DNA of 64,000 nucleotides, taken from the NCBI GenBank assembly GCA_042408215.1, contig JAYFMW010000021.1, forward strand, positions 1 through 64,000. Reading direction: 5' to 3'. How positions within the stretch are numbered: position 1 is the first letter of the stretch; every line of letters starts with the position of its first letter. The translations under genes were made by a program, and so were the position numbers. Under the pieces are notes generated by a model. That model saw only the letters and a list, made by a program, of their open reading frames with translations, searched no databases and was not told the DNA's origin. The DNA comes from Microcoleus sp. (GTDB lineage Bacteria; Cyanobacteriota; Cyanobacteriia; Cyanobacteriales; Microcoleaceae). Below, in pieces: positions 24,601 to 59,927 of this stretch.

Positions 24601-24838
24601 CGGAAAGTCCTTGTTCGAGGGGGCGGGTAATTTCGTCAACTGCTACTTCTGGGGAGACTCCGGGGGCGTCTAGGCGCACGCTGATCCGGGGATAGGTGAT
24701 GGATGGTAGCAAGTCAACGGGTAGTTGGGTGATGTAAAAAATGCCCACAACTATAATCGCCAGTGTCAGCATCAGGGTGCCGATGTGGCGACGAATGGCG
24801 ATCGCGCTAATGCTGAATCCGGTTTTGTCGGGGGTCAT
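21617..24838 (-). CDS. RND efflux permease (AcrB/AcrD/AcrF family)
   Basis: 1073 aa; LPVDLLPSITYP, multiple TM segments, GIVVNNGI, RLRPILMT. Confidence 0.95.
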   Translation of the reverse strand: MTPDKTGFSISAIAIRRHIGTLMLTLAIIVVGIFYITQLPVDLLPSITYPRISVRLDAPGVSPEVAVDEITRPLEQGLSATEGVTQVFSRTREGQVSVDLFFKPGGDINQALNDATAAVNRIRNRLPDTVESPNLFKFDPSQQPVYEFALTSDSRQGVDLRVFADDELAREINVIPGVAAVDVSGGVQEEIQVNIDLNRLQSLGVNLNDVFNALRSRNLDTSGGRLRQESKEPLTRTIGRFKTAADINNISFQISGSNPPKRVYLRDFATVNDGTEEQRVKVFLNQKPAVKISILKQPDANTITVVDGVKNRLKEMQNSGLISADMEVVTTLDESRFIRNSLADVANAGVSGAVLAAIAVLFFLGSLRQTLIISLTIPLCTLAAIILMRLFGLSLNLFSLGGLALGIGQAIDTSVVILENIVVGLDNNPHLKKGRIKDRKERTIEESVMRSQEVESAMVASTAANLVSVLPFLLIGGFFSLLFSELILTISFAVAASLVVALTIVPMLTSRLMGMSYSSGISEFGPIKHFNRGFENATRAYGSMLSKVLGLRLIIIVVAFVILGGGTWVMAGQIPQEILPKVNTSQARLFALFPAGTNLETNQKVVAAADKLLLAQPETEYTLTTAGGLLFGNNTIENLLRGSSTITLKKGTSTIAFTERMTEELKKIDVPKGTRLRLVPEGIRGLVLTNSPVRGGEIDVIIQGPSEQVLQSAGRQILKELDEKVKLARFRPDGDAPQSEVQIRPDWERASLYGLSAQDIGETVQTAIEGTVPTQVQRGNRLVDVRVQFDRTSVKNIAQLGQIPLSGNNSIVRLSDVAKIAIGKAPGEIQRLNQRQVFLIVGNLNRGASLGDAVKQVDAVLSEMKLPPGVRIVPSSAAETNNQLQTALKLLGGLATFLVFVTMAVQYNSLVDPLVILLTVPLALAAGIFGLYVTKTAIGATVMIGAILLVGIVVNNGIIMVELANQIREDEKVDRTTAILRAAPQRLRPILMTTITTVLGLFPLALGIGEGSEFLQPLGVVVFSGLSLATLLTLFIIPCFYILLHDFFDMFGAKQKPQAVAIPVQKAARKTPN

Positions 24839-25112
24839 TTGATTTTAGATTTGGGATTTTGGATTTTGGATTGAAGAGTTGACTCGAACTTTGAATTGTG
24901 GGGCTTGCGACCAAATTCTTTTCGGTCAGGCTTTATTTTCGATCGGGAGCGATCGCATATTTACGGTCCGCACCTTACAATTGCTCTAATAAATCTTAAT
25001 AATATCTCAAGTTTTTTTTAATATTTCTTTAGAGGTAGCCGATCGCCCAAAATAGAGAGCGAGATAAGTGGCGATCGGCTTTTTTATTGACTTTTAGTGG
25101 GGGCGGGTTTAT

Positions 25113-25401
25113 AAGAAATACCCTGAAAACCCTGCGACTTTAGTCCAGGGATGAAAGGGCGTTGCAGGATTTATCCTGCCCATCTTGACAAACTGATTTT
25201 GGTTTGATAAAGTTGTTGAAACTTAGTTGGTGAAAAACCCGACAGTTGCAAGCCGTTAGGCAAAAAAGTAGCCATAGACTCAGTCATGAGCGAGTGGGTA
25301 GTGGGTATCTGACTTACCCTTTAAGAATTCAACTTTGGGCGGATTCATCCCCCAATGTTTGTCCTTAAGAATCCCCGCGTCTTCAGACCGGGGAGTGTCA
25401 A
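25113..25401 (+). mobile_element. Non-autonomous, ORF-less IS200/IS605-type element (candidate stand-alone omega/reRNA locus)
   Basis: Inserted after TTAT. Left hairpin CCCTG..CAGGG; right end GAATCCCCG..CGGGGAGTGTCAA; internal TTGACA-17-TAAAGT. Removing it restores a GGGCGGGTTT...AAACCCGCCCC repeat. Confidence 0.82.
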
Positions 25402-25591
25402 TTATGCTTGTAGCTGCACCGCAATATCTCTGGTAAAACCCGCCCCTTGTGTCTTGAAAGAGGTAGATTGCGATTTGCCGTTGGGTGGGGGCGGGTTTAC
25501 TATATTATGGGTTTTCGGCAATTCTTGTTTGTAAAACCCGCCCCTACAGTCTTATTCCTAATGACTAATGACTGCTGACTAATGACTTCTT

Positions 25592-26194
25592 TCACTGTAC
25601 TTGACTGCCGTGGACGCGGGGGTCGGAACTGCTTGTTTTCACAGGCCCTGTGGGGGGAGTAAAATTAGAAACTTGACCCGTAGCTTGCGCGTGTGGCAAA
25701 TCTTTCCCTGCAATTAAAGCCTCTAAATTAGCTTCCATAATACTGCGTGGCGCTTCGCCGATCGTTTCAGCAACGGCGCTGCCTTTATTGTTTAAATAAA
25801 CAAAGTGTGGAATGCCGTCTACCCGATATTTTGAAACTTCTGGTAGCCATTTATCATTGTCCACATTCAGCATCACAAAATTTAGCGGTTCGGCGTATTT
25901 CTGTTTGATTTCGCTCAAATCCTTTGCCATTGCTTGACAGCTACCGCACCAATTAGCATAAAATTCCATGAGTGTCGGCTTGCCATTGACTAAAGCTGTT
26001 TCCAGAGGTGCGGAGGCTTTGGCCATTGCGGTGAGACTACTTGACGGCGTTTGAGTTCGTATTCCGAAAAATATCGATACTGAAAGGGCGATCGCTGCTA
26101 ACACAATTAATAAGTTTCTGATGCGCGTCGCTGCTTTTGCTTCGGATTTTTTTGGTGCGGGGGCCGCAGTTGATTTTGGCGATTTGGGACTCAT
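25592..26194 (-). CDS. txlA: Membrane-anchored thioredoxin (TxlA/HCF164-like)
   Basis: N-terminal TM helix; EFYANWCGSC; LNVDNDKWLPE; C-terminal DPRxHG. Confidence 0.8.
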   Translation of the reverse strand: MSPKSPKSTAAPAPKKSEAKAATRIRNLLIVLAAIALSVSIFFGIRTQTPSSSLTAMAKASAPLETALVNGKPTLMEFYANWCGSCQAMAKDLSEIKQKYAEPLNFVMLNVDNDKWLPEVSKYRVDGIPHFVYLNNKGSAVAETIGEAPRSIMEANLEALIAGKDLPHAQATGQVSNFTPPTGPVKTSSSDPRVHGSQVQ

Positions 26195-27260: not shown

Positions 27261-27475
27261 ATTGGGAATGGGGAATGGGGAATGGGGAATTGGGAATGGG
27301 GAATGGGGAATGGGGAATTGGGAATGGGGAATGGGGAATGGGGAATGGGGAATGGGGAATGGGGAATTGGGAATTGGGAATTCGTAATTGGGAATTGGGA
27401 ATTCGTAATTGGGAATTCGTAATTGGGAATTGCTAGTAAATAACCAATAACCAATAACCAATAACCAATAACTAT
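27261..27475. repeat. STRR heptamer tracts (GGGAATG/GGGAATT, then TAACCAA)
   Basis: Direct 7-mer tandem repeats. Confidence 0.95.
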
Positions 27476-56373: not shown

Positions 56374-57711
56374 CTAATCGTTTAAAAACTCGACATTGGT
56401 GGACAAAGAGGCATAACTGTAACCATCAAAGCGGTGAACCGCGCGGCAGTGCTTCCAACGAATACTCTGCAAGCGCACATGAGCCACAGTCAAATCAAAT
56501 GCACCGGATTTTCTGACGGTGACTTTACCAACGTGAGTACCAGCGTGTTTCCCAGTAGGAACAATAGCTTTAACCATGTCGCCCGTTTGAAAACCAAAGT
56601 AATTTTTCTGTCGCTCACGTTTGATTAGCTTACCTTCCTTACCACGCTTAGGAAAGCCAAATTTGTCAACTTGACACATTTGACGATTTCCATAACCAAC
56701 AGCCCTTATTGACAGCGGCACTACCCCTGAAACTTTTAGTTTGAGGGGTGTAGATGCCCCAACACAGGCAGCATCCAGCCAGTGAGTTTTAGGTAGGTTT
56801 TGACGACATCGGTTAAACTTTGTCCGCCCACCAGTCCCAACTTCCACGGATAATCCAGTCTCTTTGAGTCGATTAAATAATGCCCAACGGGTAGAATTAA
56901 CGGCAGCAGTGTCGGCTTTCTGTTGTTTTACTTGTCTCAGAATGCGCTGTAACAAGTCAGGTTTTTGGGCTAAAAATTCTCTGAGAGCTTGACGGCCTTT
57001 TTTTTGGTTGCAATTCCTACAAGCAATGCCTAAATTACTAATTCTATTTGAACCACCTTTAGACTTCGGTAAAAGATGCTCAATCTCCAAACGAGTATCT
57101 TTAGCCCCACAGTACATACAGGTATGATTGAATTTGAAAAGCAGAAATTCTCGCACTTCGTAACCAGCTAACTCACCTTGTTGGTATGCGACTCCACTGA
57201 TGTCTGGATTCTCCATGAGTTGAGTGTCAAACTTGACTAATTCCTGAGAAATATCAGAAATCAACGCTAGCTTTTGTAACCTACGAACCCAAGTTACGAT
57301 ATTCTCAACTCGGCTTTGCAGACTGGGTGGGAGCCACCCTGTAGGGCGTTTCCGGTTATCAAAGCGTGGTTGACGATACCGAGTTTTTCGATGGCGTCTT
57401 CCTCTTCTTAACTGGCGGCGTTTGGTTAAAGCATCGCGAATTTGAAAGCCTCTATGTTCTAGTTCGGCGGCCCAAACTACTTCTCCTGTTGCATCATCTA
57501 CCAGTGCTAAGCCAGTCAATTTAGCACCAGGATCTATTTTTAATCGCCAGGGTGCAATTTGGGGATTTGGTAGAACATCTTTCAGGATGATGGTGAACGG
57601 GTAACGTTTCCAGACAGCGGCTTTGCCCTCTTGAAGCAGCATCCTGGCTCGGCCTGGATGGATAGGATTTAGAGGATTTTTGTTGGTGTCTACAACGAAT
57701 ATTTTGCTCAT
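56374..57711 (-). CDS. iscB: RNA-guided endonuclease IscB
   Basis: PLNP (PLMP-like), RuvC-I KIDPG, Arg-rich bridge helix, RuvC-II QELVKFD, HNH CMYC..EHLLPKSKGGSN..CRNCN, RuvC-III HWLDAAC; GGAGG RBS. Confidence 0.95.
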   Translation of the reverse strand: MSKIFVVDTNKNPLNPIHPGRARMLLQEGKAAVWKRYPFTIILKDVLPNPQIAPWRLKIDPGAKLTGLALVDDATGEVVWAAELEHRGFQIRDALTKRRQLRRGRRHRKTRYRQPRFDNRKRPTGWLPPSLQSRVENIVTWVRRLQKLALISDISQELVKFDTQLMENPDISGVAYQQGELAGYEVREFLLFKFNHTCMYCGAKDTRLEIEHLLPKSKGGSNRISNLGIACRNCNQKKGRQALREFLAQKPDLLQRILRQVKQQKADTAAVNSTRWALFNRLKETGLSVEVGTGGRTKFNRCRQNLPKTHWLDAACVGASTPLKLKVSGVVPLSIRAVGYGNRQMCQVDKFGFPKRGKEGKLIKRERQKNYFGFQTGDMVKAIVPTGKHAGTHVGKVTVRKSGAFDLTVAHVRLQSIRWKHCRAVHRFDGYSYASLSTNVEFLND

Positions 57712-57724
57712 ATTGAGCCTCCGA

Positions 57725-57950
57725 ATAATCGGGTGATTTTTGCCTTGGTAATGTTAAGAGGGCTTGTCAGACTAGCAGCACTTCCTTAGCGAAATAAAGA
57801 TGTTTAACTGGTAGCGACAGAGCAAGGAGCTGGCAAGCACTCACAGGGTGTCGTGACCTTCTTAACGTAGTCTGTGGTTAGACTTAACCGGGCTATCTCT
57901 ACCAAGGATTTCTCTGGATTGTCCAGGTTTGTCCAGTGGTTCGCGGATAG
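57725..57950 (-). ncRNA. HEARO / IscB omega-RNA scaffold
   Basis: About 230-nt leader upstream of iscB with a (G)CTATC/GATAGC first stem and HEARO-like blocks CTACGTT, ACACC, TGC..CCAGC..GCTCT, GTTAAACA, AACATT..AGGC. Confidence 0.85.
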
Positions 57951-58482
57951 CAATTTCACACTCCCGAACTTCCTCCCCAAGCATGGATTGAGTTAGTCCA
58001 CGACGACCACTACGTTCAAGCTTACTGCAACGGCACCCTCGATGCCAAAGCTCAGCGACGAATTGGTCTCCCTTGGAGTCCGGCCCTGGTGAACCGCACT
58101 TGCACGGCCCTCGCAGGTACTGCGATCGCAGCTAGACTCGCTTTAGAATCCGGTTTAGCCTGCAATACAGCCGGCGGAACTCATCATGCCTTCCCGAATT
58201 ATGGGTCTGGTTTTTGTATTTTTAACGATTTGGCGATCGCCTCTCGTGTCCTCCAACAATTGGGTTTAGTTCGTCAAGTCTTAATTGTCGATTTAGCTCA
58301 ATAGACGGGAATCCCCACACTAGACCGATCGAAGGTTAGTGTGGGATGAGAGTCGCCCATATCTGGATGACGAGACGAGCAATTTTCATTCTACTTATTA
58401 TTGTAACACCATAATTATTGGTTCCTCAAATATCTAATGTCGAAAATTTCTAGATCTTTATGGATAATATGAGTTCATGTAC

Positions 58483-58511
58483 TTGACCGAGAATAACATA
58501 TCTGATAGAGT
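58483..58511 (+). promoter_or_regulatory. Putative tnpB promoter
   Basis: TTGACC, 17-nt spacer, TAGAGT, with a TGn extension; 33 nt upstream of the ATG. Confidence 0.5.
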
Positions 58512-58544
58512 AATACTAATAGGTGCGACTTTAACTGTGACCCA

Positions 58545-59927
58545 ATGAAAACAACATATCAGTACCAGTTTTATCCAAATACCAATCAAAAGTTAGCCCT
58601 AAACCAGTGGCTCAGAATTTGCCGTTATTGGTATAATCGCCAATTGGGAGATCGCTTGGATTGGTGGGATAACAACCGCACTGCTGTAAATGCTTGTCCA
58701 TCGATCGCCAGTATTTCCCATCCCAGAGAAAAGCCTAACTACTATTCGCAAAAACAACAATTACCCCTCCTCAAAAAAGACTTGGTAAAGGTTTTTCATA
58801 GTGGGGAGTTGTTGGACTTTAAACAGGTAGATTCAACCCTACTCCAAGATGTTTGTAAGCGAGGAGATAAAGCTTTCGAGCGATTTATCGTAGGCGATAG
58901 TCAGGGTAAAAAATCGGGCAAACCCCGATTCAAAACTGAAGCCGATTACCGGACGATGACTTTCGCCACTGCGAGTAATGATTGGATTAAACGGATTCGC
59001 AAGAGTTGGATATATATTCGATTACCGAAACTGGGGGTTGTGAAAGTTCGGATGCACCGCCCAATCCCTTATGGATTTACCATCAAGCAAGCTAGTGTTA
59101 CGAAAAAAGCTGATGGTTGGTTCATTCAGTTAATACTCGAAGACATCTCTGTACCTCAATTCACACCTGATAAAGTTATTCCCACTTGGGATAACTCAAT
59201 CGGTTTGGATGCGGTGTTACATGAAGATGTCTATCTGGCTACTTCCGAAGGTGAAAAACTACCTTGTTTGAAGCCACTTCGCAAGAATAAAGCGAAACTA
59301 GACCGTATTTCTCAGAAACGAAATAAACGGAAACGAGGTTCTAAATCTCGACGTAAATTGGCCAAAAAAGAAGCTATTCGACATCAAAAGATTGCTCGGT
59401 CTCGTAAAGACTTCCATTATAAAACCGCTCATAAGTTGATCGAGACAGGAGCCAAATTTTTCTTTTATGAAGAACTCAATCTTAAAGGCTTAACCAAGAG
59501 AAATAAAGTTAAGCAAGATGATAATGCGAATTATCTTCCCAATGGTCAATCAGCTAAATCAGGGTTGAATAAATCTTGGTTGGATGCTGCATTTGGTCAA
59601 TTTTTCCTGACGCTGGAATACATAGCCGCCAAAGCTGGATCAGTCGTCGTTTCACAAAAACCTGCTTATACCTCAATGGTTCTCTGTTATCGGAATGAAA
59701 TTATTTTCACTGATTGTAGTATGAGAGACTATTGGGACGAGCAAAATTCTTTGATGGTAGATCGTGATATTAATGCTGCGATCAACCTAAAAAGACTGGG
59801 GTTGGACATTTTCCCCAGTATAAAACGCTGTAGTGGGAATCTTTCTATAGTAGGAACTATGGATAAAAGTACCACAAAGGAAATTTTGTATACCCTTAAT
59901 CGGGCTACAAAGAAGCCCACGTCATAG
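58545..59927 (+). CDS. tnpB: RNA-guided endonuclease TnpB
   Basis: YQYQFYP HTH-OrfB, GKPRFK, RuvC-I IGLD, RuvC-II YEELNL, KSGLNKSWLDA, RuvC-III DRDINAAINL. Confidence 0.93.
   Translation: MKTTYQYQFYPNTNQKLALNQWLRICRYWYNRQLGDRLDWWDNNRTAVNACPSIASISHPREKPNYYSQKQQLPLLKKDLVKVFHSGELLDFKQVDSTLLQDVCKRGDKAFERFIVGDSQGKKSGKPRFKTEADYRTMTFATASNDWIKRIRKSWIYIRLPKLGVVKVRMHRPIPYGFTIKQASVTKKADGWFIQLILEDISVPQFTPDKVIPTWDNSIGLDAVLHEDVYLATSEGEKLPCLKPLRKNKAKLDRISQKRNKRKRGSKSRRKLAKKEAIRHQKIARSRKDFHYKTAHKLIETGAKFFFYEELNLKGLTKRNKVKQDDNANYLPNGQSAKSGLNKSWLDAAFGQFFLTLEYIAAKAGSVVVSQKPAYTSMVLCYRNEIIFTDCSMRDYWDEQNSLMVDRDINAAINLKRLGLDIFPSIKRCSGNLSIVGTMDKSTTKEILYTLNRATKKPTS

What the first reader, a model, noticed from the sequence alone, without database searches (positions are those of the whole stretch)
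25113..25401. 289-bp ORF-less IS605-type element with its own promoter: candidate stand-alone guide-RNA gene
Seen: TTAT, 13 nt, then AAAA and the left hairpin. This is the same 13-nt spacing as TTAG to AATC in the tnpB element at 58297. The right end is GAAT-hairpin-TCAA. Inside is a consensus promoter TTGACA(25185)-17-TAAAGT(25208), then ~180 nt of non-coding, hairpin-rich sequence (GGGTA..TACCC; TTGGG.GGAT..ATCC.CCCAA within TTAAG..CTTAA) with no recognisable tnpB remnant. Known: TnpB reRNA is the right end plus ~16-20 nt of flank. Inference: the element expresses an omega-RNA ending in guide TTATGCTTGTAGCTGCACCG and borrows TnpB and TnpA in trans. It sits in the loop of a multicopy GGGCGGGTTTAT repeat whose arm supplies TTAT, so that repeat family may be a recurring landing pad.
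Basis: partly seen in the sequence, partly recalled or inferred. Interest (0 to 1): 0.75.

Follow-up and report, generated by a model that had tools for sequence, protein, structure and literature searches.

The report
Guide-RNA mini-transposon keeps tnpB hairpin
This is a recently inserted, protein-less offshoot of a jumping gene in a cyanobacterium that still carries a likely promoter and the guide-RNA part of the lost nuclease gene, which is a known kind of element, and it has also kept one small hairpin from inside that gene whose role is not known.

Summary
Real, and mostly a known kind. 25113-25401 is one of 16 near-identical ORF-less copies (family A) of a tnpB-only IS605-type element present 31 times in this genome, 25 with an intact RuvC-II-rearranged TnpB. 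A relative holds the exact empty site. The trans-guide idea is supported indirectly: the whole omegaRNA scaffold is kept, from the AAGUA start mapped for another RIIr-5 TnpB, with compensatory changes among 20 minis and a conserved -35/-10. Expression and TnpB binding are unshown; the -10 is weakened in 7 of 16 copies. Gene-less omegaRNA elements (PATEs) are published. The extra: the one mid-gene piece kept is an 18-nt hairpin under codon-level constraint in distant tnpB genes and kept next to the scaffold by unrelated minis in three other cyanobacterial genomes; sister families B and C lack it. I found it in none of 8 paper searches. The scan has noted such elements, and kept tnpB hairpins, before on other DNA.

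The parts
25109..25112 (+). TTAT target motif (TAM), outside the element
   Evidence: 64 of 66 paired elements follow TTAT; present in the empty site
25113..25401 (+). 289-bp ORF-less IS605-type mini-element, family A (16 copies, 90-100% identical)
   Evidence: empty site in G005
25113..25180 (+). Left end: AAAA DNA guide 25126-25129, hairpin 25130-25150, second hairpin 25164-25179; shared with the 31 long tnpB elements
   Evidence: the role of AAAA follows the IS608 pairing rule (recalled)
25185..25213 (+). sigma70-type promoter motif TTGACA-17-TAAAGT, specific to family A; origin unclear
   Evidence: -10 variants TAAATT, TAATTT, TAGTTT, TATTTT in diverged copies; TCGAGT or TCAAGT in 7 of 16 own copies
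25226..25243 (+). 5-bp hairpin with 8-nt loop, from tnpB codons V-G-E-K-P-D
25244..25265 (+). Short linker of decayed tnpB codons; an 87-nt (29-codon) deletion lies at its 3' end
   Evidence: tblastn gap of 29 aa
25266..25401 (+). Predicted omegaRNA scaffold (136 nt) over the former tnpB C-terminus (stop 25366-25368): stem 1, stem 2 at 25303-25319 whose loop UGAC (25310-25313) can pair with GUCA (25397-25400), long stem 25321-25368
   Evidence: 5' end inferred from supplement S2 of PMC10278001
25369..25401 (+). Right end: GAAT, hairpin 25373-25393, TCAA
25402..25421 (+). Predicted guide (host flank); after TTAT it matches only the empty site
   Evidence: no TTAT site with fewer than 4 mismatches in the first 16 nt in the genome; all 66 guides differ
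25099..25112 (+). Left arm of the host palindromic repeat into which this copy inserted (right arm 25434-25446)
   Evidence: 491 GGCGGGTTT matches in the genome

Best explanation
A non-autonomous IS200/IS605 miniature (PATE) made by internal deletion of a tnpB element, kept working as a self-protecting guide-RNA cassette. Shown: it is mobile, inserts after TTAT without duplication, shares both ends with 31 long elements, and keeps the full 3' scaffold. Inferred: a Y1 TnpA made elsewhere excises and inserts it; the promoter starts a transcript near 25220; cognate TnpB from the long copies binds it and trims it to about 25266; the guide is the flank from 25402; the complex cuts TTAT+flank sites left after excision, and repair from a chromosome copy restores the element. 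The 5' hairpin is probably a working part of the precursor RNA. I put about 0.93 on 'PATE from this tnpB family' and about 0.65 on 'family A makes a working trans guide'.
For: Copy number and ends. Empty site in G005; four further sites filled in metagenome contigs are empty TTAT sites here. 25 of 31 long elements encode a TnpB of 400 aa or more with D198, G291, E338, D386, matching the RuvC-II rearrangement shown active for TvTnpB (PMC10530073). Scaffold retention starts at AAGUA on the K-V codons after NADxNG..IxRK, where the processed omegaRNA of RIIr-5 ortholog 38 begins (PMC10278001 file S2), and that Val codon is the most constrained of 177 conserved columns. Among 20 minis 95% of 960 cells pair, 6 of 48 pairs change on both sides (2 of 500 shuffles), pseudoknot 100%. 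One double change (U-A to A-U in stem 2) was seen only in ORF-less elements: none of 29 database matches lay in a tnpB gene. The -35 and the T-A---T of the -10 persist while the middle -10 bases vary. An intact tnpA with the same left end exists in G139 (L129), 69% identical to an intact tnpA of this genome. PATEs that encode omegaRNAs needing TnpB in trans are described (PMC10055086).
Against: No stranded or raw RNA data; contigs from RNA libraries cannot show transcription. The -10 loses its A in 7 of 16 copies. Related sequences can beat shuffle controls without structure, and I derived the structure from these sequences (caveats). Pair 69-93 is unpaired in 14 of 20 minis against 1 of 14 long elements. 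This copy has two mismatches in the long stem, and its guide can pair with its own leader (-20.2 kcal/mol; 8 of 3000 random flanks as strong), which lowers the 5' hairpin's pairing probability from 0.75-0.86 to about 0.2. RIIr-5 ortholog 38 was inactive in the published TAM screen. No intact tnpA with this left end was found among 20 Y1_Tnp matches in this genome.
Confidence: 0.65

Rival explanations
1. Passive hitch-hiker: a PATE spread by TnpA alone; the scaffold, hairpin and promoter are leftovers, kept by recent amplification, recombination with long copies and DNA-level palindrome correction.
For: 90-100% identity among the 16 copies; mosaic variants among copies and shared right-end variants between A and B; -10 decay in 7 of 16 copies; no expression data.
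Against: About 100 nt more than the terminal hairpin is kept in A and B; mini-specific changes persist across genera instead of being overwritten by long copies; promoter region diverges to 66-72% while the scaffold stays 88-91% in 4 of 5 complete distant copies, 80% in the fifth; unrelated minis keep hairpin plus scaffold at 94% hairpin identity against 66% in the linker.
Confidence: 0.22
2. Decoy or parasite of TnpB: the mini RNA binds TnpB mainly to soak it up or to regulate tnpB expression through the kept hairpin, and homing is secondary.
For: 35 ORF-less against 31 long elements share the ends; the kept hairpin lies upstream of the inferred processed RNA, so it is not part of the guide itself.
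Against: Scaffold, pseudoknot and guide junction are intact, as expected for cutting; no data on titration; families B and C lack the hairpin.
Confidence: 0.09
3. Host-domesticated guide gene with a fixed target (defence or regulation).
For: Strong promoter motif; structured RNA.
Against: All 66 guides differ and are simply flank; the insertion is absent from G005; no TTAT-adjacent target in the genome. Phage and plasmid targets were not searched.
Confidence: 0.04

Closest known systems
PATEs of IS605-type transposons (Haloquadratum walsbyi, PMC3119063; passages seen)
   Same: No terminal inverted repeats, near-terminal palindromes, no target duplication, too short for a transposase, multicopy; HqIRS71 likewise keeps part of the tnpB C-terminal coding region.
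   Different: Cyanobacterial; carries a promoter motif and a separate mid-gene hairpin; the passages seen do not discuss a guide-RNA role.
omegaRNA-encoding PATE-like elements of Geobacillus stearothermophilus ISGst families (PMC10055086; passages seen)
   Same: Gene-less, same ends as tnpB elements of the genome, predicted to need TnpA and TnpB in trans for mobility and restorative homing.
   Different: Partner here is a RuvC-II-rearranged TnpB with TAM TTAT; the kept intragenic hairpin is not mentioned in the passages seen.
Standalone omegaRNAs acting in trans (as summarised in PMC10691335; passages seen)
   Same: Mobilised RNA-only loci in the same genome as effector loci.
   Different: Trans activity is shown there for compatible OMEGA effectors; here it is inferred. 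That paper calls their biological role unknown.
RIIr-5 / TnpB2 nucleases such as TvTnpB (PMC10691335 section 8; PMC10530073 passages)
   Same: RuvC-II Glu replaced by Gly, alternative Glu 47 residues on, NADxN motif.
   Different: No solved structure matched at E 0.001; activity of this subfamily untested; tree placement not done.

Membership tests
PATE (IS605-derived) | Near-terminal palindromes related to those of an IS605-type element | tested here: met
   Left 72 nt and right 138 nt shared with 31 tnpB elements
PATE (IS605-derived) | No target-site duplication; insertion after a short target motif | tested here: met
   Empty site in G005 restores the flank exactly; TTAT in 64 of 66
PATE (IS605-derived) | No transposase or nuclease ORF | tested here: met
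   No ORF of 80 aa or more over 25113-25401; only tnpB fragments
PATE (IS605-derived) | No terminal inverted repeats | tested here: met
   Read from the sequence: the two termini are not complementary; no separate repeat search was run
PATE (IS605-derived) | Mobilised by TnpA in trans | tested here: inconclusive
   Mobility shown by filled and empty sites; intact tnpA with this left end only in G139; closest intact tnpA in this genome (69%) has another left end
Standalone omegaRNA | Complete scaffold ending at the transposon end, followed by a variable guide | tested here: met
   5' limit inferred from one published ortholog
Standalone omegaRNA | Compatible effector in the same genome | tested here: met
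   25 of 31 long elements with intact ORF and motifs; Pfam OrfB_IS605 above cut-off
Standalone omegaRNA | The RNA is expressed | tested here: inconclusive
   Family-A-specific interior is on contigs of 4 of 4 RNA libraries laid, but contigs show no strand, start or level
Standalone omegaRNA | Binds the effector and directs cleavage in trans | not testable with these tools
   needs biochemistry
RIIr-5 TnpB (partner protein) | RuvC-II Glu to Gly with alternative Glu about 45 residues downstream | tested here: met
   G291 and E338 by motif; no structure model made
RIIr-5 TnpB (partner protein) | Placement in the RIIr-5 clade of the TnpB tree | not tested
   assigned by motifs only
Rfam RNA families | Match at gathering score | tested here: not met
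   No match in the element; none meaningful at E up to 5 for one copy each of A, B, C and the long element

The most novel reading that the evidence does not exclude
The 18-nt hairpin at the x-G-E-K-P-x codons is an undescribed cis-signal in the precursor RNA of cyanobacterial RuvC-II-rearranged TnpBs, needed for TnpB loading or for 5' trimming at AAGUA. Gene-less minis of several lineages are natural minimal precursors (promoter, hairpin, short linker, scaffold) that keep exactly the parts TnpB needs. Supplying the hairpin could turn on enzymes of this clade that look inactive with the trimmed scaffold alone.
Probability: 0.35. Interest if true: 0.65.

Novelty: new variant of a known kind. 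Interest (0 to 1): 0.42.

Why it matters
The element class is known, so the finding alone is ordinary. It matters in two modest ways. First, the role of standalone omegaRNAs is called unknown in PMC10691335, and this genome offers a clean test set: 16 + 14 minis, 25 intact cognate nucleases, a known TAM candidate (TTAT) and a natural empty site. Second, the minis act as a natural deletion scan of the tnpB transcript, and point to a short intragenic hairpin under nucleotide-level constraint, a possible missing part of omegaRNA biogenesis in a little-studied TnpB clade.

Tried and rejected
Landing-pad repeat: rejected, 1 of 66. Window tnpB at 58545 as partner: rejected, best alignment E 7.6. Non-tnpB origin of the interior: rejected. 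Origin of the promoter segment 25181-25224: unresolved; two weak, conflicting alignments (tnpB leader, or upstream coding sequence at 67% with gaps), no genome match outside family A. Self-targeting: none of 66 guides has a TTAT-adjacent perfect match of 12 nt or more; this is also the chance expectation. Rfam: nothing. PDB by sequence: nothing. RNA runs: 4 of 24 listed runs were laid, all contigs; depth over the family-A interior was far above the neighbouring single-copy gene in X1 (285 against 2-5) and X2, and near it in X7, but the tool states that contig depth cannot rank genes, copies and strains are summed, and DNA may be present, so it is not used as evidence of expression. Register scan for the hairpin: it ranks 3rd by pairing (0.89, z 4.0), but other registers near VFGWNKG and TCVSSNG reach z 3.3-4.1, so that test alone does not single it out. 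Hairpin in families B and C and in 535-bp minis: absent. Pattern hits in G037, G440 and G501 have no scaffold and were dropped as chance; G197 is an intact tnpB. L048 was dropped as an unrelated chance match. No structure prediction or tree was run. Phage and plasmid collections were not searched for guide targets.

Full report
OBSERVATION. The geometry described is in the sequence at the stated places. The host is a cyanobacterium; the named records that share the element are titled Microcoleus, Kamptonema, Microcoleaceae or Oscillatoriales. The element lies between an efflux-type gene ending at 24838 (minus strand) and a thioredoxin-like gene at 25592-26194 (minus strand; names from my reading of the translations). 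Genome G005 of the same genus matches query positions 1-263 and 553-797 back to back, which is the empty site with TTAT joined to base 25402. The boundaries 25113-25401 are therefore exact, and there is no target duplication: the second TTAT belongs to the host flank.

FAMILY IN THE GENOME. BLAST with each end gave 68 left-end and 113 right-end hits; 66 pair into elements, 2 left and 47 right ends stay unpaired. The 66 are: 16 family A (289-295 bp, this one), 14 family B (298-299 bp), 4 family C (about 320 bp), one 485-bp B copy with a nested insert, and 31 long elements of 1450-1620 bp. TTAT precedes 64 of 66, and all 66 downstream 20-mers differ. 25 of the 31 long elements encode a TnpB of at least 400 aa with the motifs GID[HR]G, QDESYTS and NAD[VI]NG (Pfam OrfB_IS605). 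The canonical RuvC-II Glu is Gly291, with Glu338 47 residues on. This fits clade RIIr-5 (PMC10691335, section 8 read) and the TnpB2 group, of which TvTnpB was shown to cut (PMC10530073, passages). The assignment is by motif only. A decayed tnpA lies in the left part of some long copies. An intact tnpA beside the same left end exists in G139 (L129); the closest intact one in this genome is 69% identical to it and has a different left end, so the mobilising enzyme here is inferred. Four more sites filled with family A in metagenome contigs are empty TTAT sites in this genome, so the family has moved recently.

TWO CORRECTIONS. The interior is tnpB: the last 138 nt are 89% identical to a long element's 3' end, and 25225-25265 is 80% identical to the codons VGEKPDNWQPSGK, with 29 codons deleted between the two blocks. 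The repeat is not a landing pad: 1 of 66 against 0.13 expected.

IS THERE A GUIDE RNA? TnpB omegaRNA overlaps the end of its gene and is trimmed at the 5' end by TnpB (PMC10278001; passages and section 13 read). In its file S2 the processed RNA of RIIr-5 ortholog 38 starts with AAGUA at the K-V codons after NADxNG..IxRK; that ortholog was inactive in the TAM screen (compared by eye; the supplementary figures were too large to read). Families A and B keep everything from that same AAGUA (25266). In 20 dereplicated TnpB genes (below 75% identity; four-fold sites about 34% identical) this Val codon and the Leu codon of the pseudoknot loop are the two most constrained of 177 conserved columns. On 20 distinct minis a 48-pair structure is 95% paired, with 6 pairs changed on both sides (2 of 500 shuffles) and the four pseudoknot pairs invariant; 14 long elements give 95% and 2 pairs. 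The structure was drawn from these sequences and they are related, so this is support, not proof. One double change in stem 2 was searched as an exact pattern: 29 matches, one unrelated, none inside a tnpB gene. Against: one pair of the long stem is broken in 14 of 20 minis, and this copy has two mismatches there.

PROMOTER. In copies found through the scaffold pattern, independent of the promoter, TTGACA is kept in all family-A copies where it is visible but one, which also lacks the right end (L049), and the -10 reads TAAAGT, TAAATT, TAATTT, TAGTTT, TATTTT or TCAAGT. Keeping T, A and T while the middle varies is what selection on a -10 box gives (general knowledge). In this genome 9 of 16 copies have TAAAGT, 5 TCGAGT, 2 TCAAGT. 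Contigs of 4 RNA libraries from 4 studies carry the family-A interior, but cannot show transcription.

THE KEPT HAIRPIN. An earlier scan note (e1-5504048) led me to test whether the mid-gene block is a structure. 25226-25243 forms a 5-bp stem with an 8-nt loop (pairing probability 0.75-0.86 without guide). In 22 distinct motifs from TnpB genes 43-50% identical to the cognate protein, 94 of 110 positions pair against 83.4 +/- 3.0 for synonymous redraws (0 of 5000), and the outer pairs follow the protein: V-D gives G-C, F-E gives U-A, I-D gives A-U, and all three F-K cases use TTT with AAA. The Pro codon is the third most constrained of 177 columns and the first outside the scaffold. A scan of all registers puts it third by pairing, with other registers at similar z, so that scan is not decisive; per-pair shuffles give 124-314 of 10,000. 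A pattern search for hairpin, 20-50 nt, AAAGTA hit 9 of 301 genomes of the order (reversed control: 1 match). Besides this genome and G001: six diverged ORF-less copies in G631 with a different scaffold (hairpin 94%, linker 66% identical), one in G589 (3 of 5 pairs), one relic in G448, one intact tnpB and three chance hits. All three genomes hold related tnpB genes. The search finds only minis that have the hairpin; families B and C and the 535-bp minis lack it, so it is not universal. A protein-level or DNA-level reason for the constraint is not excluded.

MECHANISM. [quoted passage not shown] An omegaRNA from a mini-IS works in trans for an IS607 TnpB (10.1101/2023.11.20.567912, passages). 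Shown here: mobility, ends, partner genes, scaffold conservation. Inferred: transcription, trimming, binding, cutting. This copy's guide can pair with its own leader (-20.2 kcal/mol, 8 of 3000 random flanks, the strongest of 16 copies); I read this as chance, and trimming at 25266 would remove it.

COMPARISON AND NOVELTY. It meets the sequence criteria of a PATE (PMC3119063, passages) and resembles published omegaRNA-bearing PATEs and standalone omegaRNAs. The hairpin appeared in none of the listings of 8 searches or the passages read, including a 2026 review (PMC13565253, passages). The library lacks most subscription papers, and bioRxiv supplements were closed, so absence from print is not established. 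The scan has noted gene-less omegaRNA elements many times and kept tnpB hairpins twice on other DNA; I could not check whether those are the same motif. The IS608 pairing rule for the end motifs is recalled. Verdict: a known kind of element with one testable new detail; interest 0.42.

Noticed in passing
window 56374-57951 (-): HEARO RNA (Rfam 101.7 bits) followed by an intact 445-aa IscB-type ORF (RRXRR, HNH).
   Followed up: partly
window 58297-59927 (+): Separate tnpB element after TTAG, 460-aa ORF, unrelated to the mini's partner; it appears to interrupt a deacetylase-family gene (my reading of the flanks).
   Followed up: partly
L053 and G000:C27:61249-62800: The same orthologous site holds a family-A mini in a metagenome contig and a 1552-bp tnpB element here; end variants differ up to the junctions. 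Whole-element replacement, independent insertion or mis-assembly.
   Followed up: partly
L104 (G000:C6:578430-578647): A tnpB of another family is followed by two right ends 217 bp apart, like a two-unit omegaRNA array; part of the second unit matches the interior of family C and about ten other places.
   Followed up: partly
run X2, joint 25401 to 25116: A contig joins a right end to a left end of a related element, as an excised circle or a tandem would.
   Followed up: no
L177:1480-1705 (G448): Hairpin plus scaffold relic with no visible left end, between two ferredoxin-like genes.
   Followed up: partly
family B, e.g. L109, L111; L060, L069: Family B has its own 90-nt leader of unknown origin with a small hairpin that varies in a compensated way between lineages.
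   Followed up: no
L139, L142, L143: ORF-less 535-540-bp elements with this left end, another family's right end and a conserved non-coding interior with a promoter-like motif.
   Followed up: no
G000:C23:21443-21927 (L112): Family-B copy with a nested piece of another IS200/IS605 element.
   Followed up: no
L052, L061, L064: Family-A copies with a 25-nt insertion right behind the -10 box, leaving promoter and hairpin intact.
   Followed up: no
window 27263-27470: Tandem 7-mer repeats of the GGGAAT(T/G) type followed by ACCAATA repeats.
   Followed up: no
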